From contig OZ244028.1 of the NCBI GenBank assembly GCA_965214925.1, forward strand, positions 3,863,009-3,927,008: a stretch of 64,000 bases of DNA, in the 5' to 3' direction. Under the pieces are notes generated by a model. That model did no database searches and had not been told where the DNA came from. It worked only from the letters and a program-made list of their open reading frames with translations. This document shows, piece by piece, positions 3,700 through 61,161 of the stretch. Both the position numbers and the translations under genes were made by a program. Position 1 is the first letter of the stretch; the number at the start of each line of letters is the position of its first letter. This DNA comes from Candidatus Latescibacterota bacterium (lineage in GTDB: Bacteria > Latescibacterota > UBA2968).

Positions 3700-5361
3700 A
3701 TGTTGTGCTTCGCGCGATTTTCATTTTTTATGATGAAGCATTTCACAAAAGACTGCGTAATACCAGCGATGACGCAGGCGCGAAAAATAGCCATTGGCAT
3801 GCTTTTTGTGTTTTTATTCTTCAGTTCCGGTGGCGCGGAACAATTTGTGGAAGTTGCAGAGGCGGCCGGCATATCGTTTGTGCATCAAACGGGCGCGCGG
3901 GGGAACTGGCATTATTTGGAAACCATGGGGTCGGGCTGTGCGGTGTTTGATGCCGATGGGGATGGCGATCTCGACCTGTACTTTGTCAATGGCGAACACG
4001 GGCACGCGGGCGGGGCGAACGCGCTGTATGAAAACAAAGGCGGGTTTCGGTTTTCGGCTGTTTCGACCGCGCCGGGTGTGGGCTATGGCATGGGGTGTAC
4101 GGTTGGAGATTACGACAACGATGGCGATCTCGACCTTTATACGACGGGTTATGATGCCAATGTGTTGTATCAAAACAATGGTCAAGGCGGTTTTATCGAA
4201 AAAAAGGCAGGGGTGGCAGGGGGCGGGTGGTCTTCAGGCGCGGTTTTTTTTGATGCCGATGGGGATGGCGATCTCGACCTGTATGTGGCGCGCTATTTGA
4301 CGTACGATGTGACAACCGAACCCCATTGCGAGCGCGTGGGCATTCGCACCTATTGCGATCCAGGCTATTTCGAAGGTGCGCCGGACTTGCTTTATCGGAA
4401 CAATGGAGATGGCGCGTTTACAGATGTGTCCTTTGAGATGGGCGTGGCAGATGCTTCGGGAAAAGGGCTTGGGGTGGTCAGTTTGGATTACGACGGAGAT
4501 GGGGATACGGATCTCTATGTTGCAAATGATACGACGCCAAATTTTTTGTACCGCAACGCGGGCGCGCGGTTTGAGGATGTGGGTTTGGAGGCGGGGGTGG
4601 CGTTTAATGCCGACGGACAGACGCAGGCGGGGATGGGGGTCGATGTGGGCGACATAGATGGGAATGGGCGACCGGATATTTTTGTGACGAATTTTTCCTA
4701 CGAGACCAATGCGCTCTACCAGAACGAGACGGGCGGATTTTTTATGGAAGTCAGCGTTCCGCGCGGCATTGCCGGGGCATCCCTGTTGCCGCTGGGATTT
4801 GGCGCGCATTTTTTCGATTATGACAACGATGGCGACCTGGATTTGTTTGTGGCGAACGGGCATATTTTTCCAAATGTGACGGCATTTTCCGCGGCAGAGT
4901 CCTATCCACAAGCCGATCAAGTGCTCCGCAACGCGGGCGGCCGATTTGAGGTCGTCAACGCGGGCGTTGAAGCACCGGGGGTGAGCCGCGGGTCCGCCAT
5001 TGGCGATTTGGACGAAGATGGCGATTTGGATCTGGTGGTTCTGCATTCGGGGCAGCGGGCGCGGGTGTTTCGCAACCGAGGTGGGAACAAAGGACACTGG
5101 GTGGTTGTGAAACTGGTGGGCGGCACGCGCTCAAACAGAGATGGGATCGGCGCGGTGGTACACATGACCGCCGGGGGAAAGACGCAGTCGCGCGAAGTGC
5201 GGAGCCAGTCGAGCTATTTGTCGGCGAGCGATTTGCGACTGCACTTTGGGTTGGGGCATGCAAACCGCGTGGAACGGCTCGAGGTGCATTGGCCATCCGG
5301 GCGCGTGCAGGTGTTGAAAGACATCGCGGTGGATCGGGTTGTCGTCGTGGAAGAAAAATGA
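3700..5361 (+). CDS. CRTAC1-family protein: FG-GAP/VCBS repeats plus C-terminal ASPIC/UnbV domain
   Basis: Multiple DADGDGDLDLY / DYDNDGDLDL calcium-binding FG-GAP repeats followed by the ASPIC/UnbV signature (GHWVVVKLVGGTRSNRDGIGAVV...HFGLG). Probable true start at 3769 (MTQARKIAIGMLFVFLFFSSG signal peptide). Confidence 0.8.
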   Translation: MLCFARFSFFMMKHFTKDCVIPAMTQARKIAIGMLFVFLFFSSGGAEQFVEVAEAAGISFVHQTGARGNWHYLETMGSGCAVFDADGDGDLDLYFVNGEHGHAGGANALYENKGGFRFSAVSTAPGVGYGMGCTVGDYDNDGDLDLYTTGYDANVLYQNNGQGGFIEKKAGVAGGGWSSGAVFFDADGDGDLDLYVARYLTYDVTTEPHCERVGIRTYCDPGYFEGAPDLLYRNNGDGAFTDVSFEMGVADASGKGLGVVSLDYDGDGDTDLYVANDTTPNFLYRNAGARFEDVGLEAGVAFNADGQTQAGMGVDVGDIDGNGRPDIFVTNFSYETNALYQNETGGFFMEVSVPRGIAGASLLPLGFGAHFFDYDNDGDLDLFVANGHIFPNVTAFSAAESYPQADQVLRNAGGRFEVVNAGVEAPGVSRGSAIGDLDEDGDLDLVVLHSGQRARVFRNRGGNKGHWVVVKLVGGTRSNRDGIGAVVHMTAGGKTQSREVRSQSSYLSASDLRLHFGLGHANRVERLEVHWPSGRVQVLKDIAVDRVVVVEEK

Positions 5362-5483: not shown

Positions 5484-7394
5484 ATGGCTTATATCGACAC
5501 ATTATTTGACCGGTATTTTTTGGAACACGCGTCTTATGTTGTCAAAGACCGCGCCATTCCCGACATTGACGATGGGCTCAAACCCGTACAGCGACGCATT
5601 CTCCACGCGCTCAAAGAACAGGACGACGGCAAATATCACAAAGTCGCCAATGTCGTGGGCCAAACCATGAAATACCACCCGCACGGCGACCAATCCATTT
5701 CCGGCGCGCTGGTTCATCTGGCGAACAAGGATCTCTTCATCGACAAACAGGGCAACTTTGGCAACATCTTGACTGGCGACGAAGCCTCAGCCGCGCGCTA
5801 CATCGAATGCCGACTCACCCCGCTCGCCAAAGACACGCTCTTCAATCCCGAAATCACGGACTACATCGAATCCTACGACGGACGCAACACAGAACCTGTG
5901 GTTTTCCCGGCCAAAATTCCCGTCCTTCTCGCGCAGGGCACTGAAGGCATTGCCCCTGGCATGACCACGCGGGTGTTGTCCCACAACCTGATCGAATTGT
6001 TACGCGCGCAAATCGCCTATCTCCAGGGAAAAGCATTTCAGGTCTTCCCCGACTTTCCCACCGGCGGTCTTGTCGATGTCACCGAATACGCCGACGGCAA
6101 TGGCAAAGTGCTCGTGCGCGCCAAACTCGACACCAAAAATCCCAAACGCATTGTCGTGTGCGAACTGCCCTTTGGATCCACGTCCGAATCCCTCATCGCC
6201 TCCATTGAAAACGCCGCGCGCAAAAACAAACTCAAAATCGCGGGCATCAGCGATTATACGGGTGAACATGTCGAAATTGAAATCTGCCTCGCCCGCGGCG
6301 TGCATGCCAAAGATACCATAGACGCGCTCTATGCTTTCACGGACTGCGAGCAATCCATCAGCACCCACGCCCTCGTCATCAAAGAAAACCGCCCCCACAT
6401 CACCACCATTGGCGATATTCTCAAACACAATGCGGACCGCCTGATCGATGTTCTCACAGCCGAACTCAAAATTGAACAGCGGCAGGTGCGCGACAAATTG
6501 CACGCCAAAACCCTCGAACAGATCTTCATCGAAAATCGCATTTACCAAGCCATTGAGACCGTCTCCAAACCCAGTGCCATTCACACAGCCGTGCGCGAGG
6601 GCCTCAAACCCTTTCAGTCCAAAATCAAACTCAAAGTCGCGCGAGAAGACCTCGACGCGCTCTTGCAAATTCCCATTCGCCGCATTTCGCGCTACGACCT
6701 CGCCAAAGCCAAAACAGACATGCGCGCGCTGCGCGCCCGGCTCAGGGAAATCAAGGCCAACCTCAACAACATCATCGGCTTTACCATTGGCTTCTTAGAA
6801 TACCTGATCGACCAATACAAAGACCAGTACCCCCGCCGCACCGAAATCGCGTCCTTTGATCGAGTTGATGTGCGCGAAGTGGCACAGCGCAATCTCAAGT
6901 TGCGCTATGACAAAAAGACGGGCTACCTCGGTTACAACGTCAATGGCAACGTGCTCATGGATGTCTCGCAATACGATCGCGTGCTCGTCATTCGCAAAAA
7001 TGGCACGTATGCTCTGCACGAAGCCCCTGACCGTCTCTTTGTCGATAAGGGCATGCTCTTTTGCGGCTCGGTCGATTCCGAGCGCGTGTTCACCGTGGTC
7101 TACCGAGAAAAAAAGACCAACTACCCCTGCATCAAACGCTGCGTGCTCGACAAATTCATTCTGAACAAAGGCTACGAACTCGTGCCGCCGGAATGCCGCG
7201 TGCTCAAACTGACGACCGCGCGCGAGGTCTCGGTACACGTATCTTACAAACCCAAACCCCGCGCGCGCATCCTCAAAGAAGAATTTGGCATCGAAGACTA
7301 TGCGATTCGCGGCAAAACCGCCAGGGGCATACGCCTGGCCCCGCGCGAAGTCAAAAGCGTCAAATTCACAAAATCTCGCGCCCAAAAAAAATGA
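5484..7394 (+). CDS. Type IIA DNA topoisomerase A subunit (GyrA/ParC-like), unusually short at 636 aa
   Basis: LKPVQRRIL, KYHPHGD and active-site AARYIECRL (catalytic Tyr) motifs of GyrA/ParC. RBS AAGGAA precedes the ATG. Only a reduced C-terminal beta-pinwheel-like region is present, and no B-subunit gene is adjacent. Confidence 0.8.
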   Translation: MAYIDTLFDRYFLEHASYVVKDRAIPDIDDGLKPVQRRILHALKEQDDGKYHKVANVVGQTMKYHPHGDQSISGALVHLANKDLFIDKQGNFGNILTGDEASAARYIECRLTPLAKDTLFNPEITDYIESYDGRNTEPVVFPAKIPVLLAQGTEGIAPGMTTRVLSHNLIELLRAQIAYLQGKAFQVFPDFPTGGLVDVTEYADGNGKVLVRAKLDTKNPKRIVVCELPFGSTSESLIASIENAARKNKLKIAGISDYTGEHVEIEICLARGVHAKDTIDALYAFTDCEQSISTHALVIKENRPHITTIGDILKHNADRLIDVLTAELKIEQRQVRDKLHAKTLEQIFIENRIYQAIETVSKPSAIHTAVREGLKPFQSKIKLKVAREDLDALLQIPIRRISRYDLAKAKTDMRALRARLREIKANLNNIIGFTIGFLEYLIDQYKDQYPRRTEIASFDRVDVREVAQRNLKLRYDKKTGYLGYNVNGNVLMDVSQYDRVLVIRKNGTYALHEAPDRLFVDKGMLFCGSVDSERVFTVVYREKKTNYPCIKRCVLDKFILNKGYELVPPECRVLKLTTAREVSVHVSYKPKPRARILKEEFGIEDYAIRGKTARGIRLAPREVKSVKFTKSRAQKK

Positions 7395-7419
7395 GCCGAC
7401 CGCGACCGAGTCGGCTCAT
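7391..7419. terminator. Perfect 10-bp hairpin (ATGAGCCGAC-N9-GTCGGCTCAT) flanked by A8 upstream and so by T8 on the minus strand; bidirectional terminator-like element
   Basis: The inverted repeat is read directly. On the minus strand the hairpin is followed by TTTTTTTT, a classic intrinsic terminator. It sits exactly at the parC-like stop and 30 nt upstream of the MTase start. Confidence 0.45.
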
Positions 7420-7450
7420 GATGTATGTGCATCGACATAAGGAAAAATTT

Positions 7451-8893
7451 ATGGCAAATTCTGAATGGACATTGAAAGCGGAATGCGGGAACGAAAAACA
7501 CACTGTACACAGAGACCTGATCAAAAAGAAATACGAGCACCTGATCACCCACAATCCCCAACTCACGAGAACCCTTGTCAGCTTTCAGGCGAATAAAAAC
7601 ACACCGTATTATCGGTGGTTCAAATACAAAGAGGGCTTCTCCGCGCGGATGGTTCACTATCTCTTGAAAACACTGACCGCGAAACAAGGGGCGTTATTGG
7701 ATCCATTCTCGGGAACAGGGACTGCGTTATTTGCATCGCGGGAATTTGGATGGAAAGCAACTGGCATCGAGCTTCTCCCGGTGGGATGTGCGATCACCAA
7801 AGCGAGACAAGCAGCCGATCATGTGGATATGGCAATGCTAATAAAAGAAGTTGAGACCATCGGCAACATCGATTTCTCGACGATCAAATCCAACAACCCT
7901 CCCATTCGGCACATCGCGATTACCAAAGGGGCGTTTTCTCGAGAGACAGAAGATCAACTGAATGGTTATTTAACCTATTGCGAAAATCAGATTGAAGATT
8001 CTCACCTCAAAACCCTGCTTCGTTTTGCGGCTTTTTGCATTCTGGAAAGCATCAGTTATACCCGGAAGGACGGTCAGTATCTGCGCTGGGATTATCGCGC
8101 GGGAAGAACCCGAGTCAAAGCGAAATTTGACAAGGGAAAAATTTACCCGTTCAAAGAAGCACTGCAATTTCAGCTCGATGTGATGGTTGAGGACCTGCTC
8201 CACGATGACATGGATCTTTTCAAACCGAAGAGATTACCACAAAACGGACAGCGCATCCGGTTGATTCAAGGCTCCTGTCTCGAAGAACTGTGCAAATTCA
8301 ACACCGAGCATTTTGATTTTATTGTGACATCTCCCCCGTATTGTAACCGCTATGATTACACGCGCACCTACGCGCTTGAACTGATATTTTTGAACAAGAA
8401 CGAGGAGGCAGTCAAGCACCTGCGACAACAAATGCTATCCTGTACCGTTGAAAACAAAGAAAAAGTGGAATCTCTGAAAACCCAATATGCAAACCGTAAA
8501 GACTTTTTTCAGAAGGTCGTTTCTGCTTTCGAAAACCATCATGCACTTCAGGAAGTCCTCTATTGGCTGAACACATACAAGCGAGAAGGCCAGTTGAACA
8601 ACTCGAATATTCCGCGCATGATCACAAATTATTTTTTTGAAATGGCCCTGGTCATATTTGAAATGAGCAGGGTGCTAAAGCCAGGTGGAAAGGTCGCTAT
8701 GGTCAATGACAATGTCAGGTACGCAGGAGAAGAGATACCTGTCGATTTAATCCTTTCCGACTTTGCAGAGGCTGCTGGCTTATCCACCAAGAATATCTGG
8801 ATTCTGGGGACAGGCAAAGGCAATAGCAGCCAGCAGATGGGCAAATACGGTCGCGCAGAGTTGCGAAAATGCGTGTATATCTGGGAAAAATAA
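7451..8893 (+). CDS. Type II DNA methyltransferase (N6-adenine or N4-cytosine; motif I then motif IV order)
   Basis: Motif I LLDPFSGTGT and motif IV FIVTSPPYCNRYDY, with a large intervening region that is the putative TRD. RBS AAGGAAA lies 8 nt upstream of ATG 7451. The track's longer ORF from 7061 overlaps the topoisomerase gene and is GC-discordant. The gene is AT-rich relative to its flanks. Confidence 0.8.
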   Translation: MANSEWTLKAECGNEKHTVHRDLIKKKYEHLITHNPQLTRTLVSFQANKNTPYYRWFKYKEGFSARMVHYLLKTLTAKQGALLDPFSGTGTALFASREFGWKATGIELLPVGCAITKARQAADHVDMAMLIKEVETIGNIDFSTIKSNNPPIRHIAITKGAFSRETEDQLNGYLTYCENQIEDSHLKTLLRFAAFCILESISYTRKDGQYLRWDYRAGRTRVKAKFDKGKIYPFKEALQFQLDVMVEDLLHDDMDLFKPKRLPQNGQRIRLIQGSCLEELCKFNTEHFDFIVTSPPYCNRYDYTRTYALELIFLNKNEEAVKHLRQQMLSCTVENKEKVESLKTQYANRKDFFQKVVSAFENHHALQEVLYWLNTYKREGQLNNSNIPRMITNYFFEMALVIFEMSRVLKPGGKVAMVNDNVRYAGEEIPVDLILSDFAEAAGLSTKNIWILGTGKGNSSQQMGKYGRAELRKCVYIWEK

Positions 8894-8894
8894 T

Positions 8895-9869
8895 TTACAG
8901 ATCAACCAGCCAGTTCACCAGATTTTCAATCTGTTTTGGTTTACAGAGATTTGCTACGCCAGACAATTTTCCATTCTTCAGGCGTCCGATGATTTCCCGA
9001 GCCATTGCAACCTCTATAGCAGCACCGATAAAAATCAATCCGAGAGAATGAGTTGAAAAACTTCCCGCGATCCGATCGAGAGCGGCCCTTGCAGTCTTCC
9101 AGTGTTCATCCGCCCCAGCCGGATCAATACCTCCCTTTAACTCCCCACACAGGATGTAATTTTCTTTTTTTTTTAACAATGCCCTTATTTCAGTTCGCGT
9201 AAAAATTGTCCTGGGCGTTCTCAATAGTATGATGTCCACATTATTTCCCGTTGAACCGATAAAAGGGCATTTCATATTGAAAGCGAGAATCCTCCCCGGC
9301 CATTGCAAGGCACTCAGACCACTTTCGAGAAGATCTTTAATATCTGTCCCAAGTAGATTCATGAAATTGTGTACTTTTCTATGCAAGTAGGTCACGCCGA
9401 CCCGTTCATATTTCGTCTGCATCCTCGTCAAAAGGTGTGTTACGAATTTTATCTCAGCCTGCCTACCTATATCGTTGCGCTTGACGCCACCGAGTTGCTC
9501 TCCACAATTCAGGGTATAGCGATACAGAATATTCCCGATCACATCCTGCTTAAGCTGGTCCTTCTCTCTTTCGATGACGAGCCTTTTCAATAGTTCTTTT
9601 GTTTTTTTTTGACCAATCGCGCTTCTGGCCTTCTCTGTAAATCCCGATGCGCCAATGAGTATTTCCAAGATCTTTTGATCTTTTTCTGCTGCATCAAGCA
9701 AAGTTTCTAGATCTGATCCTATATGTTCCAACTTGCTTCTGGCTTCAATTATTCTGCTGACAAATGGCGATGCCAATTCAAACTGTCTCATGGCCTGCTG
9801 AAGAAATCCCTCGGCGGTTTCTTCCCATGTGGTCGTGATCTCTGAAGGGTCATGATAAATGGGTTGCAT
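8895..9869 (-). CDS. Putative Type II restriction endonuclease (cognate of the adjacent MTase)
   Basis: 324-aa ORF convergent with the MTase and ending tail-to-tail 1 nt from it. It shares the same low GC. No family could be assigned from sequence alone (GELKGGIDPAGADEHWK region), so the call rests on context. Confidence 0.5.
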   Translation of the reverse strand: MQPIYHDPSEITTTWEETAEGFLQQAMRQFELASPFVSRIIEARSKLEHIGSDLETLLDAAEKDQKILEILIGASGFTEKARSAIGQKKTKELLKRLVIEREKDQLKQDVIGNILYRYTLNCGEQLGGVKRNDIGRQAEIKFVTHLLTRMQTKYERVGVTYLHRKVHNFMNLLGTDIKDLLESGLSALQWPGRILAFNMKCPFIGSTGNNVDIILLRTPRTIFTRTEIRALLKKKENYILCGELKGGIDPAGADEHWKTARAALDRIAGSFSTHSLGLIFIGAAIEVAMAREIIGRLKNGKLSGVANLCKPKQIENLVNWLVDL

Positions 9870-9996
9870 TTGGTTTTCCTTTACATTATGGGCGTGGGTG
9901 ATTTTTCTTTGTGAACTTCAAATTGTCTCTTAACTTGCCATCAGGGATTTTACAACAGACAAGATACGGCGTCCTTTCCCATAGGAGAATTCCAAA

Positions 9997-11022
9997 ATGA
10001 GACCTTATTCGCGCATCTCATTATTGATCACCGCTGCATTAATAGCTCTGGGGGCATCCCGCGATATGAAAACGAAATACCACCCCGGTCATTATGTGGC
10101 GATACAAGCCTCTGAAAACGTGCAAGATATTCGGCATCTCGATGAAAAAGCTCTGCGCGGCGTGATCAAAAGATATACGTGGAAGCGGTTGGAGCCCGAG
10201 CGGGATAGGTATAACTTCTCGTCTATCGAGCGCGACCTCGACTTTCTCGCAGGGCACAACAAGCAACTCATCGCGTTCATCATCGACAAATCCTTCGGCC
10301 CATACCCGGTTTTGCCAGCGTATCTGGCGAATTACAAATTGCAAAGCGAAGGAGGCGGGATTTGCGCCATGCGATGGGACCCGTTCGTGATTGACCGCAT
10401 GATCGCATTGGGCCACGCGCTCGGCGAGGCGTTTGACGTGCATCCCAATTTTGAGGGCGTCGCCATTCAAGAATCCTCGCTCGGTATTCCGATAGATGTT
10501 TGTATCAAAAACGGCTATACGTCCGAAAAATACAAAACCGCGCTGCTCGACATTTTGATCGGTTTGAAGGGAAATATGAAGCGCAGTCAGGTGTTCTGGT
10601 ACATGAACTTTCTGCCACAAAATCAAGGGGATCTCCGCGAGATAGCCCAGGCCATTGTCCCATACCAAATCGCCATGGGCGGCCCCGATATTTTGCCCCA
10701 TCGCAAATACATGGCGCGGGTTTCCTATCCGCTCTACAAAGCCTTTAAGGACAAAATCCCGCTCTTTTGCTCGGCTCAGAACGACTCGTATAAGCACCAC
10801 AAAAACGACACGAACAACCAAACAAAAAATCGAGTCCAAGTTCACGCAGAAGGGTATCTTTCTATGGAAAAAATTTTCACCTTTGCCCGAGACGACCTGC
10901 ATGTAGATTACGTGTTTTGGCAGCACAAGTACGAGAAAACCAATCCAGCAGAGCGCGATTTCGACGATGCAATCGAAGTGATCCGCAAATATCCGACATT
11001 TAATGCGACTACAAAAAAATAG
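9997..11022 (+). CDS. Secreted hypothetical protein (possible glycan-active TIM-barrel-like enzyme)
   Basis: N-terminal signal peptide MRPYSRISLLITAALIALGASRD. Low-GC gene lying between the R-M cassette and the sulfatases. The antisense 396-aa ORF on the minus strand looks non-protein-like. Confidence 0.5.
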   Translation: MRPYSRISLLITAALIALGASRDMKTKYHPGHYVAIQASENVQDIRHLDEKALRGVIKRYTWKRLEPERDRYNFSSIERDLDFLAGHNKQLIAFIIDKSFGPYPVLPAYLANYKLQSEGGGICAMRWDPFVIDRMIALGHALGEAFDVHPNFEGVAIQESSLGIPIDVCIKNGYTSEKYKTALLDILIGLKGNMKRSQVFWYMNFLPQNQGDLREIAQAIVPYQIAMGGPDILPHRKYMARVSYPLYKAFKDKIPLFCSAQNDSYKHHKNDTNNQTKNRVQVHAEGYLSMEKIFTFARDDLHVDYVFWQHKYEKTNPAERDFDDAIEVIRKYPTFNATTKK

Positions 11023-14422: not shown

Positions 14423-15304
14423 ATGAGCCAGCGCATCCAACAAGAAAAGAGACCAGAGAAAGCACCGCCAGAGAAGGCACAGATGCACGCACGCGTTTGG
14501 GGCCATATCATGTCCATGCGGTTCTTCAACACGGCAGGTACCATCATCTTTTGGGTGGGATTCAGGTTCGCGGGGCACCGGGAATTTAGCAAAGGCAGGA
14601 TCGAATTGTGGCAACCTTATAACAAAGTTGCAGATGGGCTGATTTCGCATGATACGGTAACTGCCGTGAGTGCCGCCGGCATTATGCCCTACTACCTTTC
14701 CGGACTGACCGTCATTGACTTGCACGGGCTGAATGACAAGACCATTACCCGTAACCCGGTCACGCTTCCAAATAATCAGCGGCGAATCGCCCATGACCGC
14801 ACCCCCCCGCCCGGCTACCTGGAAAAACGGGGCGTCAACTTTATACCCTATCCGGCGGCCACCAGCGCGGCAGAGGCTCATCGCATCGCGCCCTATGCCG
14901 TTCCTGTCGGCCCTAATCTGAGGCTCCCTTTCGATACCAACAACCCGCAGTGGGCCGAGGAAAGCTTTGCGACGTTTTCCCACATCGAGCGATGGCGGAT
15001 AGATACAGTGCCAGCCGTTATCGTCAGTACAGGAACTCCGGTGGTCGGCGAGCGGTTCACCGTCAGGCTATCCGACGCAACGCGCCGTGCCGGCTTTATC
15101 CAAAGGGCACAGTGGCAATGGGAGCGGGGGAGCGACGCCGAGGGCTGGCGTTTGGCAATTGACGGCTGTGGCGCATCCTACCAATACGTTCCATCCGCGG
15201 ACGAAGTCGGTCTCCGCCTCCGTGCCTACACCTACTACACCGACGCCGAGGGCAACCGGATCAAGGCTATTACCCCGGCCTCGGCACCCGTAGCGGCAAA
15301 ATGA
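14423..15304 (+). CDS. Hypothetical protein; possibly a C-terminal gene fragment
   Basis: 293-aa ORF with no recognisable motif and an odd Pro/Lys-rich N-terminus. An alternative minus-strand ORF (14405..14983) competes with it. It lies in a junk-like region between the sulfatases and the orphan MTase. Confidence 0.3.
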   Translation: MSQRIQQEKRPEKAPPEKAQMHARVWGHIMSMRFFNTAGTIIFWVGFRFAGHREFSKGRIELWQPYNKVADGLISHDTVTAVSAAGIMPYYLSGLTVIDLHGLNDKTITRNPVTLPNNQRRIAHDRTPPPGYLEKRGVNFIPYPAATSAAEAHRIAPYAVPVGPNLRLPFDTNNPQWAEESFATFSHIERWRIDTVPAVIVSTGTPVVGERFTVRLSDATRRAGFIQRAQWQWERGSDAEGWRLAIDGCGASYQYVPSADEVGLRLRAYTYYTDAEGNRIKAITPASAPVAAK

Positions 15305-15379
15305 ATGACCGGGCCGCCGGTCATTACCTGAGCGCGAAGGGAAATACAAAAATCTGGCAGAGTTCAGGAGATGGAGACA

Positions 15380-16300
15380 TCATCCCTGAAAAGAGAGGGC
15401 GAATTGCTCCTGAAAGGCGGGGGACAGACTGGCTTTTTCATTCTCTGCGACACAATCGGGTGACATCACCAGTGCTTCTTCCATCGCGTTGCGGAGCGAT
15501 TCTTGGGCACCGACGTGATAGAAATGCGCGGTTGTCGCTGTGGGATAATTAGAGAAATGCTTTGTCAGGTGTTCATTTGTGCGATATTTGTTTTGCTTCC
15601 AAGTGGAGTAAGCAAAACGCGCTGTTAAGTTTTTGACTTCTCGCGCCAACCCGTCGGCATCCTCGCCGCGCCACGAGTTGTAATAATCCGTATGTCTGTC
15701 GTTGTACGGCGGGTCGAGATAGACGAAATCTGAATCTTCAATTTGGCTTAGCGTCTCGCGCCAATCCTGAACAATGAAGTGCCAATCCTTCCCCTTGATT
15801 CTCTCCACTGCCCAAGCGACTTGATTGCATATTTTGGTGATATAAGCACGCGCAAATCTTTCGGGCTTCCTACAGAACGGAACATTGAATTTGCCCTGTG
15901 CGTTGAATCGCATCATGCCGTTAAAACACGCCCGGTTCAACAAGAGAAAGTCAAAGGGTGAATGCTGTGCATTAAAACGCTCGCGCACTTTATAGTAGTG
16001 CGCTTGGCCTCTTTCACTGAGCGCACGGCCTTCTCGCTGCAAGAAGCAGCGCAAATCATAGGGATTCATGTCGCCGGTTTGTATCGCGCGGTAAAAGCGG
16101 ATGATGTGTTCATTCGCATCTGCGAGCAAGGCGCGCTCTGGATTGACATTGAGAACCACAACGCCCGAGCCCAAGAAGGGTTCAACCCATCGCCCGCGTC
16201 CATCCCATTTCACATTGTGCCTAATAAATGGCACGAGCTTTGTTTTAATGCCCTGAATTTTGAGGGGTGGTGCCTTTACATGGTTTGCATTCTTATTCAT
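15380..16300 (-). CDS. Dam-family (D12-class) N6-adenine DNA methyltransferase, solitary
   Basis: PLKIQGIKTKLVPFI is KWAGGK-like, EPFLGSGVV is motif I, and FVYLDPPYN is motif IV DPPY. I place the start at internal Met (MNKNANHV...). The track's TTG-initiated N-terminal extension is Arg/Pro-rich and unlikely to be coding. No cognate nuclease is adjacent. Confidence 0.75.
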   Translation of the reverse strand: MNKNANHVKAPPLKIQGIKTKLVPFIRHNVKWDGRGRWVEPFLGSGVVVLNVNPERALLADANEHIIRFYRAIQTGDMNPYDLRCFLQREGRALSERGQAHYYKVRERFNAQHSPFDFLLLNRACFNGMMRFNAQGKFNVPFCRKPERFARAYITKICNQVAWAVERIKGKDWHFIVQDWRETLSQIEDSDFVYLDPPYNDRHTDYYNSWRGEDADGLAREVKNLTARFAYSTWKQNKYRTNEHLTKHFSNYPTATTAHFYHVGAQESLRNAMEEALVMSPDCVAENEKASLSPAFQEQFALSFQG

Positions 16301-16529
16301 CTTTATCCCCTGAGATTTTGAAAAAACTCGGCGAATTGCGTCACGCGGGAGGGTATGAAACCATCGCGCAAGGTTTGGAACACGCCATTGACCATCATCT
16401 TTTGGAGTTGCGCTGTCAAAGAGCAAAAAAATGAAAAAAAACTACAAGAAAAAGGGTTGACAGAGGATGAAATTCTCAAAGACTTTGAAATATTTCGCGA
16501 GCAATTGAGGCAAGGGGATGCAGCGACTT
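16283..16529 (+). pseudogene. Ribbon-helix-helix (CopG/VapB-like) antitoxin, apparently frameshifted in an A-run
   Basis: One frame gives SLSPEILKKLGELRHAGGYETIAQGLEHAIDHHLLEL, the RHH signature. The adjacent frame gives KLQEKGLTEDEILKDFEIFREQLRQGDAAT, and its stop overlaps the PIN gene start. The track shows no intact 60-aa ORF here. Confidence 0.35.
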
Positions 16530-16940
16530 GAGCTTGTTGTTGATGCAAACCCATTGATTTCCGCGCTCATGGGCAGGCAAGCATTAAAATTGTTGTTCAG
16601 TCCATTATTTTTTTTATAACAGAACGCACAACATGGAAAGTCAAAAGATATATCCCAGAGATTGCACAGCGTCTTGAAATCGCAGAAATTGAAATCCCAG
16701 ATACATTTAAAGACTTTCCATTAATCGCTTACCAATCAAATCTCTATAGCCCTGCTCTTAGTCGCGCAACAAATACAATTGGGCTTCGCGATCCAAAAGA
16801 TATAGACATTCTCGCTCTCGCATATCATCTGAGAACACCATTGTGGCCCCATGATCTCGATCTAATAGAAATAGAAGATATTCAAACTGTTACCACGCGA
16901 GATTTGCTAACAGTCATAGGCTACATAGAACAAAACAAAG
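16518..16940 (+). pseudogene. PIN-domain (VapC-like) toxin gene, disrupted near a T8 homopolymer
   Basis: N-terminus MQRLELVVDANPLISALMGRQALKLL is a PIN signature. After a frame change, DIDILALAYHLRTPLWPHDLDL gives the C-terminal PIN acidic motif. ATG 16518 overlaps the antitoxin stop (ATGcagcgacTTGA). Confidence 0.4.
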
Positions 16941-55396: not shown

Positions 55397-56272
55397 TCAT
55401 CTCCTCCTTTTAAGCCGCGTCTGTGCCTTTTGCAGTAAATCTCTTGGATCTATTTTGGAGTGTGTTTCAATCATCTTTGACCTTGTATTTTGTGAGGAGC
55501 GTTTCTCTCGTTTGTCGGTACTGTCCAATTGTGACAATGAAGCATCTTTCAATAAAAGGTCCAAAACGCGATGTGCTTGTTTGCGTTTCAACAACCCTCT
55601 ACTTACGACTATTTGTGCATCAATGCCCAAAAGACAATCCAAACAGGCAGTCTCACAATGGTTATGATGTTCCTGGTTGACATAAAGAACGCGCAACGCT
55701 TCTTCAAGCCCTAAACGACCTAGCCCTAACAATTCTCGAACATGACCAGCACCACCGGCGACATTGTCATAAAGTACAACACCCCATCCAGAGCCATTCT
55801 TGCCAGTCGGTATAGTCATCACGCCAAGTTCACGTGTATCCAGTTCAAGCACCTGAACTCCTGCTCTTTGCAATGCATATCCCAACGTTGTAATCAAAGC
55901 AAGGTCCCGTGCCTGAGCATCTAGACATCCCACAAAATCAACCATCAATACATCCGTAATTTCACGAGCCGCTAACACTTGCCTTCGGAGAATATGGGAT
56001 TCTCCATCATGCCAGCAACGACTCCAAGGGTTTGAAGAATGTAAAGGCGCATGGTTGACAAAATTAGGGGGAAGGTTCTGAATGCCATTGCCGTAACCCG
56101 TTTCACTTTCGGCAAAACCACACTTGAGACAAATAGCAAATCCTCGGTGGTTTTCGCCTTTATTGTACACCAATATTTCCCCATCTTCCTGATAGTAACA
56201 AGTCAACCCTCGTATATCTCCCAAATTTTCGACGGATATATTTGCCTCATTGCGACCCTGTAAAAACGCCAT
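55397..56272 (-). CDS. DUF1998-like zinc-ribbon protein (MrfA/DrmB-type C-terminal module) as a separate ORF
   Basis: Cys clusters CLKCGF and HHNHCETACLDC. It lies immediately downstream of the SF2 helicase. AT-rich. Confidence 0.45.
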   Translation of the reverse strand: MAFLQGRNEANISVENLGDIRGLTCYYQEDGEILVYNKGENHRGFAICLKCGFAESETGYGNGIQNLPPNFVNHAPLHSSNPWSRCWHDGESHILRRQVLAAREITDVLMVDFVGCLDAQARDLALITTLGYALQRAGVQVLELDTRELGVMTIPTGKNGSGWGVVLYDNVAGGAGHVRELLGLGRLGLEEALRVLYVNQEHHNHCETACLDCLLGIDAQIVVSRGLLKRKQAHRVLDLLLKDASLSQLDSTDKREKRSSQNTRSKMIETHSKIDPRDLLQKAQTRLKRRR

Positions 56273-56301
56273 GGTAGCTGTCTCAACAGAACCAATGCGT
56301 T

Positions 56302-58308
56302 CTACATCGGTGCTAAATTAATGGGAAAGCCATAATGAGGCAAAAATTGCCGATCAGCCAAACCCTCAATAACCGTAATTGCATGCAGAGCGCGCAATTG
56401 ATAATGAATTGCGTTAGCCTGTGCCTGCTGTTCTTCTCCAGTCGTACGCCAACTTGACAGTAAATTCTCATATTCTTCGCGCCAACTGTAAATGCCCTCG
56501 CGAAAACCATCAATGGAATGTTGTAAAAAGCTGTGCCAATCCTCTAATTCTTTCAACAACTGGGTTTCACGCAACAAGATCTCAATCGCATTACCCAGTA
56601 CCTCTTGTCCCTTGTCTCGTACCCAATTCATATAGCTTAAAAACTGTGTCTCCAGACCAGGTACCTCCGACTCGGGATTCCACCAAGGCAAATCAAGCTG
56701 ATATTCCGATGCAATAGGTGTTTGAATACTCGGTTTGGGATCTCCCTTCTTCCAGTATGCCACCTTTGGCACACCACAAAAATTGCCCATGTTGCCAAAT
56801 GCGTTCATTGCTCTCACATGTTGATCTTCAGGATAAATGGCCCGGAAAAATTCTCCGAGTAAAAAGGAGTGAAAATGACGCTTCACGACCCGATTGCGAT
56901 CGAGAAAGACCAAAGGTTTGCGTAAAGGACGCTCAAGGTAGTCGCCAACGCGATTGAAAACTTCTCGATCATAGGGCTGTGGTCGGGCATAGGTTATCAC
57001 AGCAGAAGAGCCATCAGACCGACGGCCGGCACGGCCGGCACGCTGTAAATAGTTGGCCTTTCCTGGCGGCACATTGCTCATTAAAACCGCGTTCAAACCG
57101 CCAATGTCAATGCCCAATTCCAGGGTCGTTGTCGCACTCAAAATATTGCGAATGCCATATTTGAAAAGGTCCTGTAATCGCCTATTTTCATGGGGCGATA
57201 ACTGTGCACTGTGTTCTTCTGCCCACAACCCCATCTGAAAAACTTCTGAATTGCGATACTCGCGCCGCTGCCGCCCGACGCGAGCATCTTTGTCCAGTTC
57301 GTCATCTGATATGGGTCTTAACGTGCGATTACAACCCAATTCGGGCGCACAGTTCAAGATGCTACGATACCAGAGGTGTCCCGTCTTTTCACAGCGATAG
57401 AGATCGGCGGGACGCCGCAGGCCCAAATGGTCAAAAACCAACTGAATGGCATCTTGTGTTGGTCCAGTGCCAGACTGTCTTATGTGGTACTGAAGCCAGG
57501 GCAATTCTCCATCCGAAGGTTTTTGCCCCGCAAGATGCGCCGCTTTCATCAACTGCCCAAATGCCATTCTGAGCATCCGACCAGCCAAGTCTTCTATGTC
57601 ATCTGAAACACCGCAGGCCCTCAATACCTGGGCGGCAAACCACAATCTGCGTTGCCGCAGAGATTGTCCCACGAAACTAACCAATCGGTTGCCAGATGTT
57701 TGTTCTGCACACCAATAGCCTATATAGGGCACATCAAACGAACCATTTTTCAAGGCACCTGAATCTTCAAGCGCAATAATCCCATTGGATCTAAGCGTGT
57801 CACACAATGCTTTAAGGAAATCTCCCCATACCCTAATCAGTTGATCTCGAACCTTCTCATAGGGCAAAATACCAAGTAATTGATTGGGCACTTTCAATTC
57901 ATCAATCCCGGGATAGGTCACTTCAATTAGACCGAGGTTTTCCAATGAATTGAAGCCGCGATAGGTACGGGCAAATTCGCATGCCAAATACGATCTAGCA
58001 TGCCGCTTCACTTGTTCATGATTCTTTTCCCATTCTTGTTGCCCCCAAATTTGTCCATCTTTTTCAGGCAGGTGATGAGAGGCTGACGCGCGGTCCAGCA
58101 ATTCTGATAGGAGGAGTTGACGAGCCAGTTTTTTACACCAGTCATCAATAGAACCACCTGCGGCTGCGCTTTGTGCCTGTAATCTCCAAATTTGCAGGGT
58201 GTTTTCGATTATGTGCCTTAACCCAGGATCAAGATCAGGATTTTCAAGTTGCTTTTCTTGTTCCCTGATCATTTTCTCAATGCCAGCAACCGTTTCTTCT
58301 CCTCCCAA
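56302..58308 (-). CDS. SF2 DEAH helicase, C-terminal part (RecA-like domain 2 plus large insertion and C-terminal domain)
   Basis: Helicase motif V/VI: ILSATTTLELGIDIGGL and YLQRAGRAGRR. The frame remains open upstream of the track's TTG start, which suggests a 1-nt frameshift relative to the upstream ORF. Confidence 0.65.
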   Translation of the reverse strand: MGGEETVAGIEKMIREQEKQLENPDLDPGLRHIIENTLQIWRLQAQSAAAGGSIDDWCKKLARQLLLSELLDRASASHHLPEKDGQIWGQQEWEKNHEQVKRHARSYLACEFARTYRGFNSLENLGLIEVTYPGIDELKVPNQLLGILPYEKVRDQLIRVWGDFLKALCDTLRSNGIIALEDSGALKNGSFDVPYIGYWCAEQTSGNRLVSFVGQSLRQRRLWFAAQVLRACGVSDDIEDLAGRMLRMAFGQLMKAAHLAGQKPSDGELPWLQYHIRQSGTGPTQDAIQLVFDHLGLRRPADLYRCEKTGHLWYRSILNCAPELGCNRTLRPISDDELDKDARVGRQRREYRNSEVFQMGLWAEEHSAQLSPHENRRLQDLFKYGIRNILSATTTLELGIDIGGLNAVLMSNVPPGKANYLQRAGRAGRRSDGSSAVITYARPQPYDREVFNRVGDYLERPLRKPLVFLDRNRVVKRHFHSFLLGEFFRAIYPEDQHVRAMNAFGNMGNFCGVPKVAYWKKGDPKPSIQTPIASEYQLDLPWWNPESEVPGLETQFLSYMNWVRDKGQEVLGNAIEILLRETQLLKELEDWHSFLQHSIDGFREGIYSWREEYENLLSSWRTTGEEQQAQANAIHYQLRALHAITVIEGLADRQFLPHYGFPINLAPM

Positions 58309-59606
58309 TCTTTTTCTAACACATGGATCGAAGGCGCGGCTCCCAATGTCTTATTGAGCAGACGGGCTGGCACCTCCAGTTCTTTTACCCGATCCACCAA
58401 ATCCGAATTGACCAAAACCGGCAATTGTTGTCGCAACTGGTGACACATATCTCTATCTTTAGCCAGTGTAGGCTGCATATCTTCATCATAGGTCATCAAA
58501 GGGCGGTCCAGCCAGTCCTGTTGAATCAAGTCGTCTGGCGTACTATCCCACTTTGGCGGCGCAGGAATGTCCAGATCAACACGGGTTGAGCGTCCCTCTA
58601 TAACCCGAACCTGATCAATTGATTTTGAAAAAAGCCTTGCGGCAAATCTCTTGAGATCATTTTGATTGCCCGACCCAAGCGTTGCAGAGGTCGCCATTTG
58701 TAGAATATCCGAAGAAGAAACCCCACAACGAAGGGCAAGACGCCGCAATAAGAGCGTGATTTCAGCAGCCAATGTTCCCGTGTATAAATGCGCTTCATCC
58801 AGAACCACGGCACGTAGCCCTGGCCCAAAGAATACGGAATCTTGTGGCCTACATAGCATGTATTCCAGCATGGAATAATTCGTCACAAGAATATCTGGAA
58901 CTTGGTCGAGATTAGGTGGACTTTGCTTTCCTCCTGTTTTTGGTTTTTCCTGCCCTCTGGCCTCTTGTCTGGTGCGGACGCGGCAGGCGTCCCAATCGGA
59001 TATGCCCTGACGGTCTGCCGTTCTTTTATTTTCTGGCGTTTCACTGGTAAAATGAAAAAGACGGACGTGTGTTTGGCCCTGAAGCCAACTATAGAGTCGA
59101 TTTACCTGATCATTGACCAGCGCATTCATAGGATATAAGATGATGCACTGCACACCTTCTTGTTTCGTCGGGGACGCGTAGAGCGCGTTTAGAATGGGTA
59201 ACAGAAACGCCTCTGTTTTACCTGCGCCAGTACCAGCAGTTATAACCACGGCTGGCTTTTTATCCTGTTTTTCCAAATCCTCAGCACAACATATGGCCTC
59301 ATATTGATGGGTATAGAGAGGCCGGTCAGGAGGTACAGCCCCAGTTCTATTCAATTGCTCGAGAAGCAGAGCGTCAAATCTTCCGGCATCAACCAACTTG
59401 CCCAGTGTCCAGTCAGACTGCTCTGCTGGGAAATTTCCCTCAACCCACAGATCGCTCAATAACCCGCCATTTTGTGGCGTTGAAGACCATAACTCGCGAC
59501 AAATATCGACTAACTGCGGATCATTTACAAAGTTGTTGTCCACACAAAAATCAGTCAACCTTTGACGGATATTTTCAGACAATTGTAGCGCGTCAAGTTG
59601 TGACAT
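58269..59606 (-). CDS. SF2 DEAH helicase, N-terminal part (RecA-like domain 1)
   Basis: Walker A ITAGTGAGKTEAF, motif II VVLDEAHLYTG, motif III MATSAT. It overlaps the next ORF by 40 nt. Confidence 0.7.
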   Translation of the reverse strand: MSQLDALQLSENIRQRLTDFCVDNNFVNDPQLVDICRELWSSTPQNGGLLSDLWVEGNFPAEQSDWTLGKLVDAGRFDALLLEQLNRTGAVPPDRPLYTHQYEAICCAEDLEKQDKKPAVVITAGTGAGKTEAFLLPILNALYASPTKQEGVQCIILYPMNALVNDQVNRLYSWLQGQTHVRLFHFTSETPENKRTADRQGISDWDACRVRTRQEARGQEKPKTGGKQSPPNLDQVPDILVTNYSMLEYMLCRPQDSVFFGPGLRAVVLDEAHLYTGTLAAEITLLLRRLALRCGVSSSDILQMATSATLGSGNQNDLKRFAARLFSKSIDQVRVIEGRSTRVDLDIPAPPKWDSTPDDLIQQDWLDRPLMTYDEDMQPTLAKDRDMCHQLRQQLPVLVNSDLVDRVKELEVPARLLNKTLGAAPSIHVLEKDWEEKKRLLALRK

Positions 59607-59615
59607 AAAATACTC

Positions 59616-61112: not shown

Positions 61113-61161
61113 TGCCTTGATCTGAATTTTTTGTTCCCAATCGGAGAGACCAGATGTGGAT

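What the first reader, a model, noticed from the sequence alone, without database searches (positions are those of the whole stretch)
7391..9869. Low-GC convergent Type II R-M cassette inserted directly after the topoisomerase gene, insulated by a perfect hairpin
MTase (motif I DPFSGTGT, then motif IV TSPPY) and a 324-aa putative REase end tail-to-tail 1 nt apart. Both are markedly AT-rich. A perfect 10-bp hairpin with A8/T8 flanks sits exactly over the topoisomerase stop and would terminate antisense readthrough from the REase gene. An ATGA stop/start overlap would also allow an N-terminally extended, translationally coupled MTase isoform.
Basis: partly seen in the sequence, partly recalled or inferred. 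Interest (0 to 1): 0.55.

Follow-up and report, generated by a model that had tools for sequence, protein, structure and literature searches.

The report
BsoBI/AvaI-type restriction-modification gene pair
This is an intact but ordinary bacterial restriction-modification gene pair, related to the well-studied enzymes BsoBI and AvaI, sitting next to the topoisomerase IV gene of an uncultured Latescibacterota bacterium.

Summary
A 480-aa amino-methyltransferase (7451-8893, +) and a 324-aa endonuclease (9869-8895, -) end tail to tail with 1 nt between their stop codons. Cassette GC is 45%, against 53% for the window. The endonuclease is a full-length BsoBI-family enzyme (Pfam E 9e-56; PDB 1DC1 E 4e-41) and keeps every catalytic and degenerate-base-contact residue of BsoBI. 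Its most likely site is therefore C^YCGRG, with N4-cytosine protection by the partner methyltransferase. A homologue of this methyltransferase lies next to a BsoBI-family endonuclease in 72 of 83 loci from many phyla, so it is not an orphan.

Three corrections apply.
- **Hairpin:** the 10-bp stem has an A8 run on one side only. It is a minus-strand terminator, is absent from relatives, and is probably what remains of parC's own bidirectional terminator.
- **Extended isoform:** the ATGA-coupled methyltransferase isoform is not supported. The start at 7451, with its ribosome-binding site, is conserved in 7 of 7 loci.
- **Age of the insertion:** it is not recent. The cassette sits after parC in several Latescibacterota genomes whose ParC is 84% identical, and it is decaying in two of them.

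Verdict: a new member of a known kind, of low interest.

The parts
5484..7394 (+). parC-like gene (DNA topoisomerase IV subunit A, 636 aa). It is the host gene upstream of the cassette; its last two codons are the A8 run.
   Evidence: NCBIfam NF007209 E 6e-275 and Pfam PF00521 E 9e-106.
7384..7419 (-). Intrinsic-terminator-like element read on the minus strand. The stem is 7419-7410 / 7400-7391 (10 perfect pairs, 9-nt loop), followed by T8 (7391-7384). On the plus strand it is A8 plus a hairpin with no T-tract. It covers the parC stop codon (7392-7394).
   Evidence: dG -26.6 kcal/mol, z -4.6. It is one of the four strongest minus-strand hairpin+T sites in the 64 kb. It is absent from relatives.
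7391..7450 (+). In-frame upstream ATG (7391, overlapping the parC TGA) and a 20-codon possible extension of the methyltransferase. It is probably not used.
   Evidence: In frame by sequence. It is not conserved in any of 6 related loci.
7440..7443 (+). Ribosome-binding site (AGGA) of the methyltransferase gene, 7 nt before ATG 7451.
   Evidence: A GGAG/AGGA block is conserved in 7 of 7 aligned loci.
7451..8893 (+). Methyltransferase gene, 480 aa. It is an alpha-class amino-methyltransferase (motif I at aa 84-91, a target-recognition region of about 200 aa, then motif IV TSPPY at aa 293-297). It is predicted to make N4-methylcytosine.
   Evidence: PADLOC MTase_II PDLC03224 E 2e-145 over the full length; Pfam PF01555. 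It is circularly permuted relative to beta-class PDB methylases. A homologue is adjacent to BsoBI-family R genes in 72 of 83 loci.
8895..9869 (-). Restriction endonuclease gene, 324 aa, BsoBI family (PD-(D/E)XK). Residues K80, D212, E243, K245, D249 and H256 correspond to BsoBI K81, D212, E240, K242, D246 and H253.
   Evidence: Pfam PF09194 E 9e-56, covering 10-313 of 313 model positions. PADLOC REase_II E 6e-54. PDB 1DC1 E 4e-41 with alignment. Residue positions; residue roles from PMC1920265.
9870..9938 (-). Conserved non-coding leader and promoter-like region of the endonuclease gene. It holds AGGA (9880-9877), a -10-like CATAAT (9890-9885; TATAAT in relatives) and a -35-like TTCACA (9915-9910, 19-nt spacer). 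It marks the right-hand end of cassette homology.
   Evidence: Alignment with L001, L002 and L004. blastn homology to L004 and L001 stops at 9938.

Best explanation
The region holds an intact Type IIP restriction-modification system of the BsoBI/AvaI family, in an uncultured Candidatus Latescibacterota chromosome.

**Endonuclease (9869-8895, minus strand).** It is predicted to act as a homodimeric PD-(D/E)XK enzyme. It most probably recognises CYCGRG and cuts after the first C.

**Methyltransferase (7451-8893, plus strand).** It is an alpha-class amino-methyltransferase with an SPPY catalytic motif. It is inferred to protect the host by making N4-methylcytosine in the same site.

**Gene layout.** The two genes converge, with 1 nt between their stop codons. 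This layout is shared with about 40% of the family members sampled. With no room for a terminator between the genes, each transcript must run antisense into the other gene.

**Expression (inferred).**
- The endonuclease gene carries its own weak promoter-like region, conserved within the cassette (9870-9938).
- The methyltransferase gene carries only a conserved ribosome-binding site. It is probably transcribed from within or through the 3' end of parC, because no plus-strand terminator separates the two genes.
- Minus-strand transcripts that cross the methyltransferase gene would meet the hairpin+T8 terminator at 7419-7384 before entering parC.

**History.** The cassette entered the parC-downstream position in an ancestor of a Latescibacterota clade. 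It has been inherited there since and is already decaying in two sister lineages.

**Shown versus inferred.** Shown: family membership, intact catalytic residues, gene arrangement, synteny and the terminator-like structure. Inferred: the recognition site, the m4C chemistry, the promoter use and the insulation role.
For: **Family and active site.** Pfam PF09194 gives E 9e-56 over the full length, and PADLOC REase_II and MTase_II models match over their full length. PDB 1DC1 (BsoBI) matches at E 4e-41, and the block GELKGGIDPAGADEHWKTA is identical. The equivalents of K81 and D246, the residues proposed to read the degenerate base pair, and of H253 are present (roles from PMC1920265).

**Cognate pairing.** A homologue of this methyltransferase (35-84% identity, near full length) lies directly beside the endonuclease homologue in 72 of 83 loci. 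Of these, 32 are convergent, 34 are M->R and 6 are R->M.

**Motif order.** The order I -> IV, permuted relative to beta-class methylases, appears.

**Recognition site.** CYCGRG occurs 46 times against 75.5 expected (O/E 0.61). All four variants are depleted, and the site ranks 6th lowest of 96 degenerate palindromes.

**Synteny.** The cassette follows parC in L001, L002, L004, L005 and L015 (ParC 84%, M 82-84%, R 75-84% identity). It is absent from 80 more distant parC loci.

**Gene starts and regulation.** The M start and its ribosome-binding site are conserved. The R upstream region is conserved.

**Terminators.** No plus-strand terminator-like site lies in 7000-10200, and a strong minus-strand one lies at 7419-7391.
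Against: - Identity to BsoBI is only about 37%, so the recognition site could differ from CYCGRG.
- The depletion of CYCGRG is moderate. Palindromic hexamers in general are depleted in this window (median O/E 0.71), and several others are far more depleted.
- No REBASE comparison, methylome or activity data were available.
- The promoter assignments are consensus matches only. The scan found 9 sites against 4.1 +/- 2.2 expected in shuffles.
- In the wider family, the gene upstream of M is co-oriented with it in only 17 of 27 loci. Read-through expression of M is therefore not a family rule.
- The terminator lies 1.48 kb beyond the R stop codon and is not conserved in relatives.
Confidence: 0.85

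Rival explanations
1. The system is a BsoBI-family R-M pair whose recognition sequence differs from CYCGRG. Examples would be a non-degenerate subset such as CCCGGG or CTCGAG, or another palindrome.
For: Identity to BsoBI is only about 37%. A remote relative, TspMI, has the narrower specificity CCCGGG (PMC1920265). Site depletion in the window is moderate and not unique to CYCGRG.
Against: In TspMI the narrower specificity goes with loss of K81 and H253. Here K81, D246 and H253 are all retained. All four CYCGRG variants, including the non-palindromic CCCGAG/CTCGGG, are depleted to a similar degree (0.49-0.65).
Confidence: 0.25
2. The cassette is a silent or decaying relic. The endonuclease is no longer expressed or active, and the methyltransferase acts as a solitary enzyme.
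For: Sister lineages show decay at the same locus. In L005 the R gene has lost its first 61 codons and most of M is gone. In L015 only the last 100 codons of R remain and M is interrupted. The R promoter-like element is weak (CATAAT, 19-nt spacer).
Against: Both ORFs are full length relative to their HMMs, and all catalytic residues are intact. The R upstream region is conserved with L001 and L004. Because disrupted copies exist at this locus in two sister lineages, an intact copy suggests continued selection.
Confidence: 0.1
3. The hairpin is an element that evolved or was recruited to insulate parC from antisense transcription coming out of the R gene. The alternative is that it is simply the leftover of parC's own terminator.
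For: On the minus strand it is a textbook terminator: a 10-11 bp G+C-rich stem followed by T8. The convergent genes leave no room for a terminator between them, so R transcripts must continue across M. L003 and L006 have a weaker A6+hairpin at the equivalent place.
Against: It is absent from L001, L004, L005 and L015. Only 1 of 29 convergent family loci has such a terminator. Outgroup parC genes carry A6-hairpin-T6 terminators at the same position, which explains the A-run and hairpin without invoking the cassette. It lies 1.48 kb past the R stop codon, a distance over which Rho-dependent termination of untranslated RNA would be expected (established knowledge).
Confidence: 0.3

Closest known systems
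BsoBI R-M system (Geobacillus stearothermophilus; endonuclease structure PDB 1DC1)
   Same: The endonucleases are homologous over their full length (E 4e-41, about 37% identity). The catalytic D212/E240/K242 and H253, and the degenerate-base contacts K81 and D246, are all conserved. The partner is an amino-methyltransferase.
   Different: Sequence identity is low. The genes here converge with 1 nt between the stop codons. From my own recollection of Ruan et al. 1996 (Mol Gen Genet 252:695), which I could not read here, bsoBIM precedes bsoBIR in the same orientation. That M->R form was found in 34 of 83 family loci. Specificity here is untested.
AvaI (Anabaena variabilis) and NspIII, isoschizomers of BsoBI (C^YCGRG)
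   Same: They belong to the same endonuclease family, with the EXK motif, the conserved histidine, K81 and D246 (PMC1920265).
   Different: The host phylum differs (Latescibacterota against Cyanobacteria).
TspMI (C^CCGGG), a remote BsoBI relative
   Same: It shares the fold, the EXK motif and the cleavage position (PMC1920265).
   Different: TspMI has phenylalanine in place of K81, serine in place of H253, and an m5C methyltransferase partner. The window protein keeps both BsoBI residues and has an amino-methyltransferase partner.
EcoRI and Eco29kI antisense / convergent-promoter regulation of R-M genes
   Same: Opposed transcription across R-M genes is a documented way of setting the M:R ratio (PMC3141266; PMC12707154). 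The abutting convergent genes here force antisense overlap.
   Different: In EcoRI and Eco29kI the genes are in tandem and the antisense RNAs come from internal reverse promoters. Here the whole genes converge, and no antisense regulation has been shown.

Membership tests
BsoBI-family Type IIP restriction endonuclease (Pfam PF09194) | Full-length match to the family profile above the curated cut-off | tested here: met
   190 bits against a cut-off of 25, E 9e-56, residues 10-324 on model positions 10-313 of 313. PADLOC REase_II E 6e-54.
BsoBI-family Type IIP restriction endonuclease (Pfam PF09194) | PD-(D/E)XK catalytic residues (BsoBI D212, E240, K242) and the proposed general base H253 | tested here: met
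   D212, E243, K245 and H256 align to them. The block GELKGGIDPAGADEHWKTA is identical to BsoBI.
BsoBI-family Type IIP restriction endonuclease (Pfam PF09194) | Residues that read the degenerate Y:R pair (BsoBI K81, D246) | tested here: met
   K80 and D249 align to them. Their roles are as stated in PMC1920265.
BsoBI-family Type IIP restriction endonuclease (Pfam PF09194) | Recognition of CYCGRG and cleavage after the first C | not testable with these tools
   Indirect evidence only: CYCGRG O/E 0.61 in the window, with all four variants depleted.
Alpha-class N4-cytosine/N6-adenine amino-methyltransferase (Pfam PF01555 N6_N4_Mtase) | AdoMet-binding motif I (FxGxG) and catalytic motif IV ((S/D/N)PP(Y/F)) | tested here: met
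   DPFSGTGT at aa 84-91 and TSPPY at aa 293-297. PF01555 scores 38.3 bits against a cut-off of 26.7.
Alpha-class N4-cytosine/N6-adenine amino-methyltransferase (Pfam PF01555 N6_N4_Mtase) | Motif order I, then target-recognition region, then IV (alpha permutation) | tested here: met
   About 200 aa separate motif I from motif IV. The N-terminal part aligns to the C-terminal part of beta-class PDB methylases, and the reverse also holds.
Alpha-class N4-cytosine/N6-adenine amino-methyltransferase (Pfam PF01555 N6_N4_Mtase) | Product is N4-methylcytosine | not testable with these tools
   Inferred. The SPPY motif is typical of N4C enzymes, and CYCGRG has no invariant adenine. A weak PDB match to N4C methyltransferases exists (8s9n, E 0.0025).
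Type II R-M system (cognate M + R pair) | Adjacent M and R genes that co-occur across unrelated genomes | tested here: met
   The stop codons are 1 nt apart here. An M homologue lies beside the R homologue in 72 of 83 loci from many phyla.
Type II R-M system (cognate M + R pair) | Controller (C) protein gene, which defines the C-regulated subset | tested here: not met
   Between 7395 and 9996 there is no room for another gene beside M and R, and no further ORF there stands apart from the two genes. The system is not of the C-protein-regulated kind.

The most novel reading that the evidence does not exclude
The parC neighbourhood of this Latescibacterota clade is a long-lived docking site for defence genes. 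The same R-M family has been kept or replaced there since before the species diverged. Other modules have been inserted around it: a DUF4160/DUF2442 pair, and a Dam-like methylase with or without a SacI-like endonuclease between parE and parC. The methyltransferase gene has no promoter of its own and is expressed by read-through from the essential parC gene. That became possible when parC's bidirectional terminator lost its T-tract and became one-directional. Under this reading, host protection is tied to the expression of an essential gene.
Probability: 0.2. Interest if true: 0.4.

Novelty: new member of a known kind. Interest (0 to 1): 0.2.

Why it matters
It matters little beyond annotation.
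- These proteins are labelled 'hypothetical' in the one related Latescibacteria record that carries a source name. They can instead be named as a BsoBI/AvaI-type endonuclease and its methyltransferase.
- For anyone wanting to manipulate or clone DNA from this uncultured lineage, CYCGRG (m4C) is a probable restriction barrier.
- The set of related loci gives a small, clean series for the R-M life cycle. It shows intact, truncated and nearly erased copies at one chromosomal position, next to an essential gene.

Tried and rejected
- **Exact-sequence look-ups failed.** Look-ups of the window's REase, its identical database entry P0001 and ParC returned nothing. The cluster listing gave no accession or name. 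The source organism is therefore inferred only from relatives.
- **No mobility signature.** I found no flanking direct or inverted repeats that would mark a transposon or integration site.
- **No known RNA element.** There was no Rfam match anywhere in the window.
- **Far-side terminator as a family feature: rejected.** Only 1 of 29 convergent loci has an R-direction terminator near the M start. My first, looser terminator detector was too permissive to be useful.
- **Promoter-less M read through from a co-oriented upstream gene, as a family rule: not supported.** A crude ORF-based count gave 17 co-oriented against 10 divergent.
- **ATGA-coupled extended M isoform: rejected on conservation**.
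- **Literature gaps.** The BsoBI structure paper (PMID 11250198) is not held. Searches found no open text stating the methylated base for M.AvaI or M.BsoBI. The m4C assignment therefore rests on inference and my own recollection.
- **Deliberately not done.** I ran no further search on the methyltransferase, because gene adjacency in 72 of 83 loci already answers the orphan question.
Full report
**1. What is in the sequence**

ORF listing and direct reading show three adjacent genes.
- A 636-aa gene at 5484-7394 (+) is a short-form topoisomerase IV subunit A (NF007209, E 6e-275; PF00521, E 9e-106).
- An ORF in the same direction ends with TAA at 8891-8893.
- A 324-aa ORF on the opposite strand spans 9869..8895.

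Exactly one base (8894) separates the two stop codons.

A perfect 10-bp inverted repeat (7391-7400 / 7410-7419, 9-nt loop) covers the parC stop codon (7392-7394) and is preceded by A8 (7384-7391). It folds far better than shuffled sequence (z -4.0 on the plus strand, -4.6 on the minus strand).

There is no T-run after the hairpin on the plus strand. The consensus scan reports it only as a minus-strand terminator, a stem followed by TTTTTTTT.

With a stricter detector of my own, it is one of the four strongest hairpin+T sites on the minus strand of the whole 64 kb. The other three sit at the ends of minus-strand genes.

The cassette has 45.2% GC against a window mean of 52.9% (sd 3.8% for windows of equal size). 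GC3 is 53% in M and 45% in R, against 60-67% in neighbouring genes.

**2. What the two proteins are**

*Endonuclease.* The 324-aa protein matches Pfam Endonuc-BsobI over the whole model (E 9e-56) and a PADLOC Type II REase model (E 6e-54). It aligns end to end with the solved BsoBI structure 1DC1 (E 4e-41).

The alignment shows that BsoBI D212, E240 and K242, the proposed general base H253, and the two residues proposed to read the degenerate Y:R pair (K81, D246) are all present. Here they are K80, D212, E243, K245, D249 and H256. The residue roles are as summarised in PMC1920265. That paper also notes that the remote relative TspMI, with the narrower site CCCGGG, has lost K81 and H253. The window protein has not.

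*Methyltransferase.* The 480-aa protein matches one PADLOC Type II methyltransferase model over its whole length (E 2e-145) and passes the Pfam N6_N4_Mtase threshold.

Motif I (DPFSGTGT, aa 84-91) precedes motif IV (TSPPY, aa 293-297) by about 200 residues. The protein aligns to beta-class PDB methylases in permuted order. It is therefore an alpha-class amino-methyltransferase.

CYCGRG has no invariant adenine, and SPPY is the usual N4-cytosine form of motif IV. N4-methylcytosine is thus the inferred product. This is inference, supported by my recollection that M.AvaI and M.BsoBI are N4C enzymes; I could not find an open text to cite.

**3. Is the methyltransferase the endonuclease's partner?**

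A genome-collection scan with the endonuclease returned 80 loci from many phyla, and three more came from contig look-ups.

A tblastn with the window's methyltransferase finds a near-full-length homologue (35-84% identity) directly beside the endonuclease homologue in 72 of these 83 loci. Of these, 32 are convergent with a few bases or none between the genes, 34 are M->R tandem and 6 are R->M tandem.

The pair is therefore a co-inherited unit. The abutting tail-to-tail layout is a common, old form of the family rather than a peculiarity of this window.

**4. History of the locus**

The closest relatives are complete or near-complete Candidatus Latescibacterota MAG chromosomes.

- **Same position.** In L001, L002, L004, L005 and L015 the cassette lies in the same place, downstream of parC. 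Identities are ParC 84%, M 82-84% and R 75-84%.
- **Boundaries.** DNA homology between the window and L004 runs without a break from parC to window position 9938 and then stops. The right boundary is therefore about 70 nt upstream of the R start. On the left, homology among cassettes begins only about 30 nt before the M start.
- **Other contexts.** In L003 and L006 the same cassette (M 70%, R 57-66%) sits in a different context, after an rsgA-like gene.
- **Absence in outgroups.** None of 80 metagenomic loci with more distant parC relatives (54-85% identity) has the cassette. In 68 of them parE lies next to parC.
- **Decay.** In L005 the R gene lacks its first 61 codons and most of M is deleted. 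In L015 only the last 100 codons of R remain, fused to the same downstream glycosidase-like gene as in the window, and M is interrupted.

The cassette is thus a real insertion, but an old one shared by a clade. The window carries an intact copy. The low GC is also seen in relatives: 39-46% for the cassette genes against 48-57% for their loci.

**5. The hairpin**

The hairpin is absent from all relatives. Among 29 convergent family loci, only one has a strong terminator oriented in the R direction near the M start. Background is 0.083 per kb per strand.

Two outgroup parC genes (L085, L086) end in canonical bidirectional terminators: A6, an 8-10 bp stem, then T6. In the window, A8 and the stem are present and the sequence after the stem is where cassette homology starts.

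The simplest reading is that this is parC's own terminator, which has lost its downstream T-tract. As it stands, it should terminate minus-strand but not plus-strand transcription.

It would also let parC transcription continue into the methyltransferase gene. Both effects are inferred and neither is shown.

**6. Start of the methyltransferase gene**

The ATG at 7391 overlaps the parC stop codon and is in frame. However, in all seven aligned loci the conserved features are the ATG equivalent to 7451 and a GGAG/AGGA ribosome-binding site 7 nt before it. Nothing further upstream is conserved, and in relatives parC ends 60-800 nt away. The 7391 ATG is also buried in the stem. The coupled long isoform is not supported.

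**7. Expression model (inferred)**

The 69 nt upstream of the R gene are conserved with L001, L002 and L004. They include a -10-like (C/T)ATAAT and a -35-like TTCAC(A/C) with an 18-19-nt spacer. This suggests a weak promoter carried by the cassette.

The M gene has only its ribosome-binding site conserved. No plus-strand terminator-like site exists between parC and the end of the region. A weak promoter-like match (TTCACA-16-AAAAAT, 7365-7392) lies in the parC 3' end.

M is therefore probably expressed from, or through, the end of parC. Transcription of M and R necessarily collides, because there is no spacer between the genes.

Opposed transcription is a documented way of tuning R-M expression in other systems (PMC3141266; PMC12707154). 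There is no controller-protein gene.

In the wider family the gene upstream of M is co-oriented with it in only 17 of 27 loci by a crude count. Read-through is therefore not a general rule.

**8. Recognition site**

CYCGRG occurs 46 times in the window against 75.5 expected from a fourth-order Markov model (O/E 0.61). All four variants are depleted (0.49-0.65). The site ranks 6th lowest of 96 degenerate palindromes of this form.

This agrees with restriction pressure on that site but is weak evidence. Palindromic hexamers as a class are depleted here (median O/E 0.71 against 1.00 for non-palindromes), and several are nearly absent.

**9. Verdict**

This is a well-preserved but ordinary Type IIP R-M system of the BsoBI/AvaI family, a new member of a known kind.

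Three of its embellishments are corrected or downgraded: the symmetric A8/T8 flanks, the purpose-built insulator and the coupled long isoform.

Interest is low. The only mildly unusual aspects are the long residence of the cassette beside an essential gene and the clustering of other defence genes around parC in this clade.

Noticed in passing
window 15380-16426 (-), with low-GC patch 16250-16750: A second DNA methyltransferase is present, of the D12 class (Dam-like, N6-adenine): PF02086 E 1e-36 and PADLOC MTase_II PDLC03264 E 9e-124. No recognisable endonuclease lies beside it. The convergent 293-aa ORF at 14423-15304 has no Pfam or PADLOC match. It is not closely related to the D12 methylase found between parE and parC in relatives (no tblastn hit at E<1e-5).
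   Followed up: partly
window 55397-63480 (-): Three consecutive ORFs (445, 668 and 291 aa) match successive parts of the Druantia helicase DruE (type III models, E 1e-30 to 1e-72). This looks like a split or frameshifted DruE. Upstream of them, in the direction of transcription, lie two large ORFs (498 and 772 aa) with no defence-model match. The whole region is the other low-GC stretch of the window (43-46%).
   Followed up: partly
whole window: Palindromic hexamers are strongly avoided: AGCGCT 0 against 11.4 expected, GTATAC 0 against 5.5, TGCGCA 2 against 25.8, GAATTC 1 against 13.2, CATATG 1 against 8.8. Median O/E is 0.71 for palindromes and 1.00 for non-palindromes. AGCT and CTAG are at 0.55. 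This suggests a long history of many restriction systems in the lineage.
   Followed up: partly
L001 8504-9151; L002 4383-5030; L005 and L015 between parC and M: In four related loci a two-domain DUF4160/DUF2442 module lies between parC and the methyltransferase gene. It is called as one 215-aa gene in L001 and L002. I take these domains to be toxin-antitoxin-like from memory, not from a test here. The window and L004 lack the module.
   Followed up: partly
L015 12476-12545: Directly after the parC stop codon there is a 70-nt remnant, 81% identical to window 8861-8930, which is the junction of the M and R 3' ends. It is in addition to the main, decayed cassette further on. L005 keeps about 15 nt of the same remnant. 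This suggests that a cassette of this family was lost and regained, or duplicated, at this site.
   Followed up: partly
L001 11356-12273; L002 7118-8854; L004 14619-15536; L005 about 15014-15922: In these relatives a D12-class methyltransferase is inserted between parE and parC. In L002 it is accompanied by a gene with a SacI-type endonuclease domain (RE_SacI_N). parE and parC are otherwise adjacent in 68 of 80 metagenomic relatives. The window and L015 have no parE next to parC.
   Followed up: partly
L085 about 4925-4962; L086 about 7918-7955: Outgroup parC genes end in canonical bidirectional intrinsic terminators (A6, an 8-10 bp stem, then T6). This is the probable ancestral form of the window's one-sided hairpin.
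   Followed up: yes
L003 and L006, about 25-60 nt upstream of the M start: An A6 run followed by an imperfect 7-bp hairpin (CCTGTCA/TGTCAGG) lies just before the ribosome-binding site of M. It is a weaker analogue of the window's minus-strand terminator in a different genomic context. It did not pass my strict terminator filter.
   Followed up: partly
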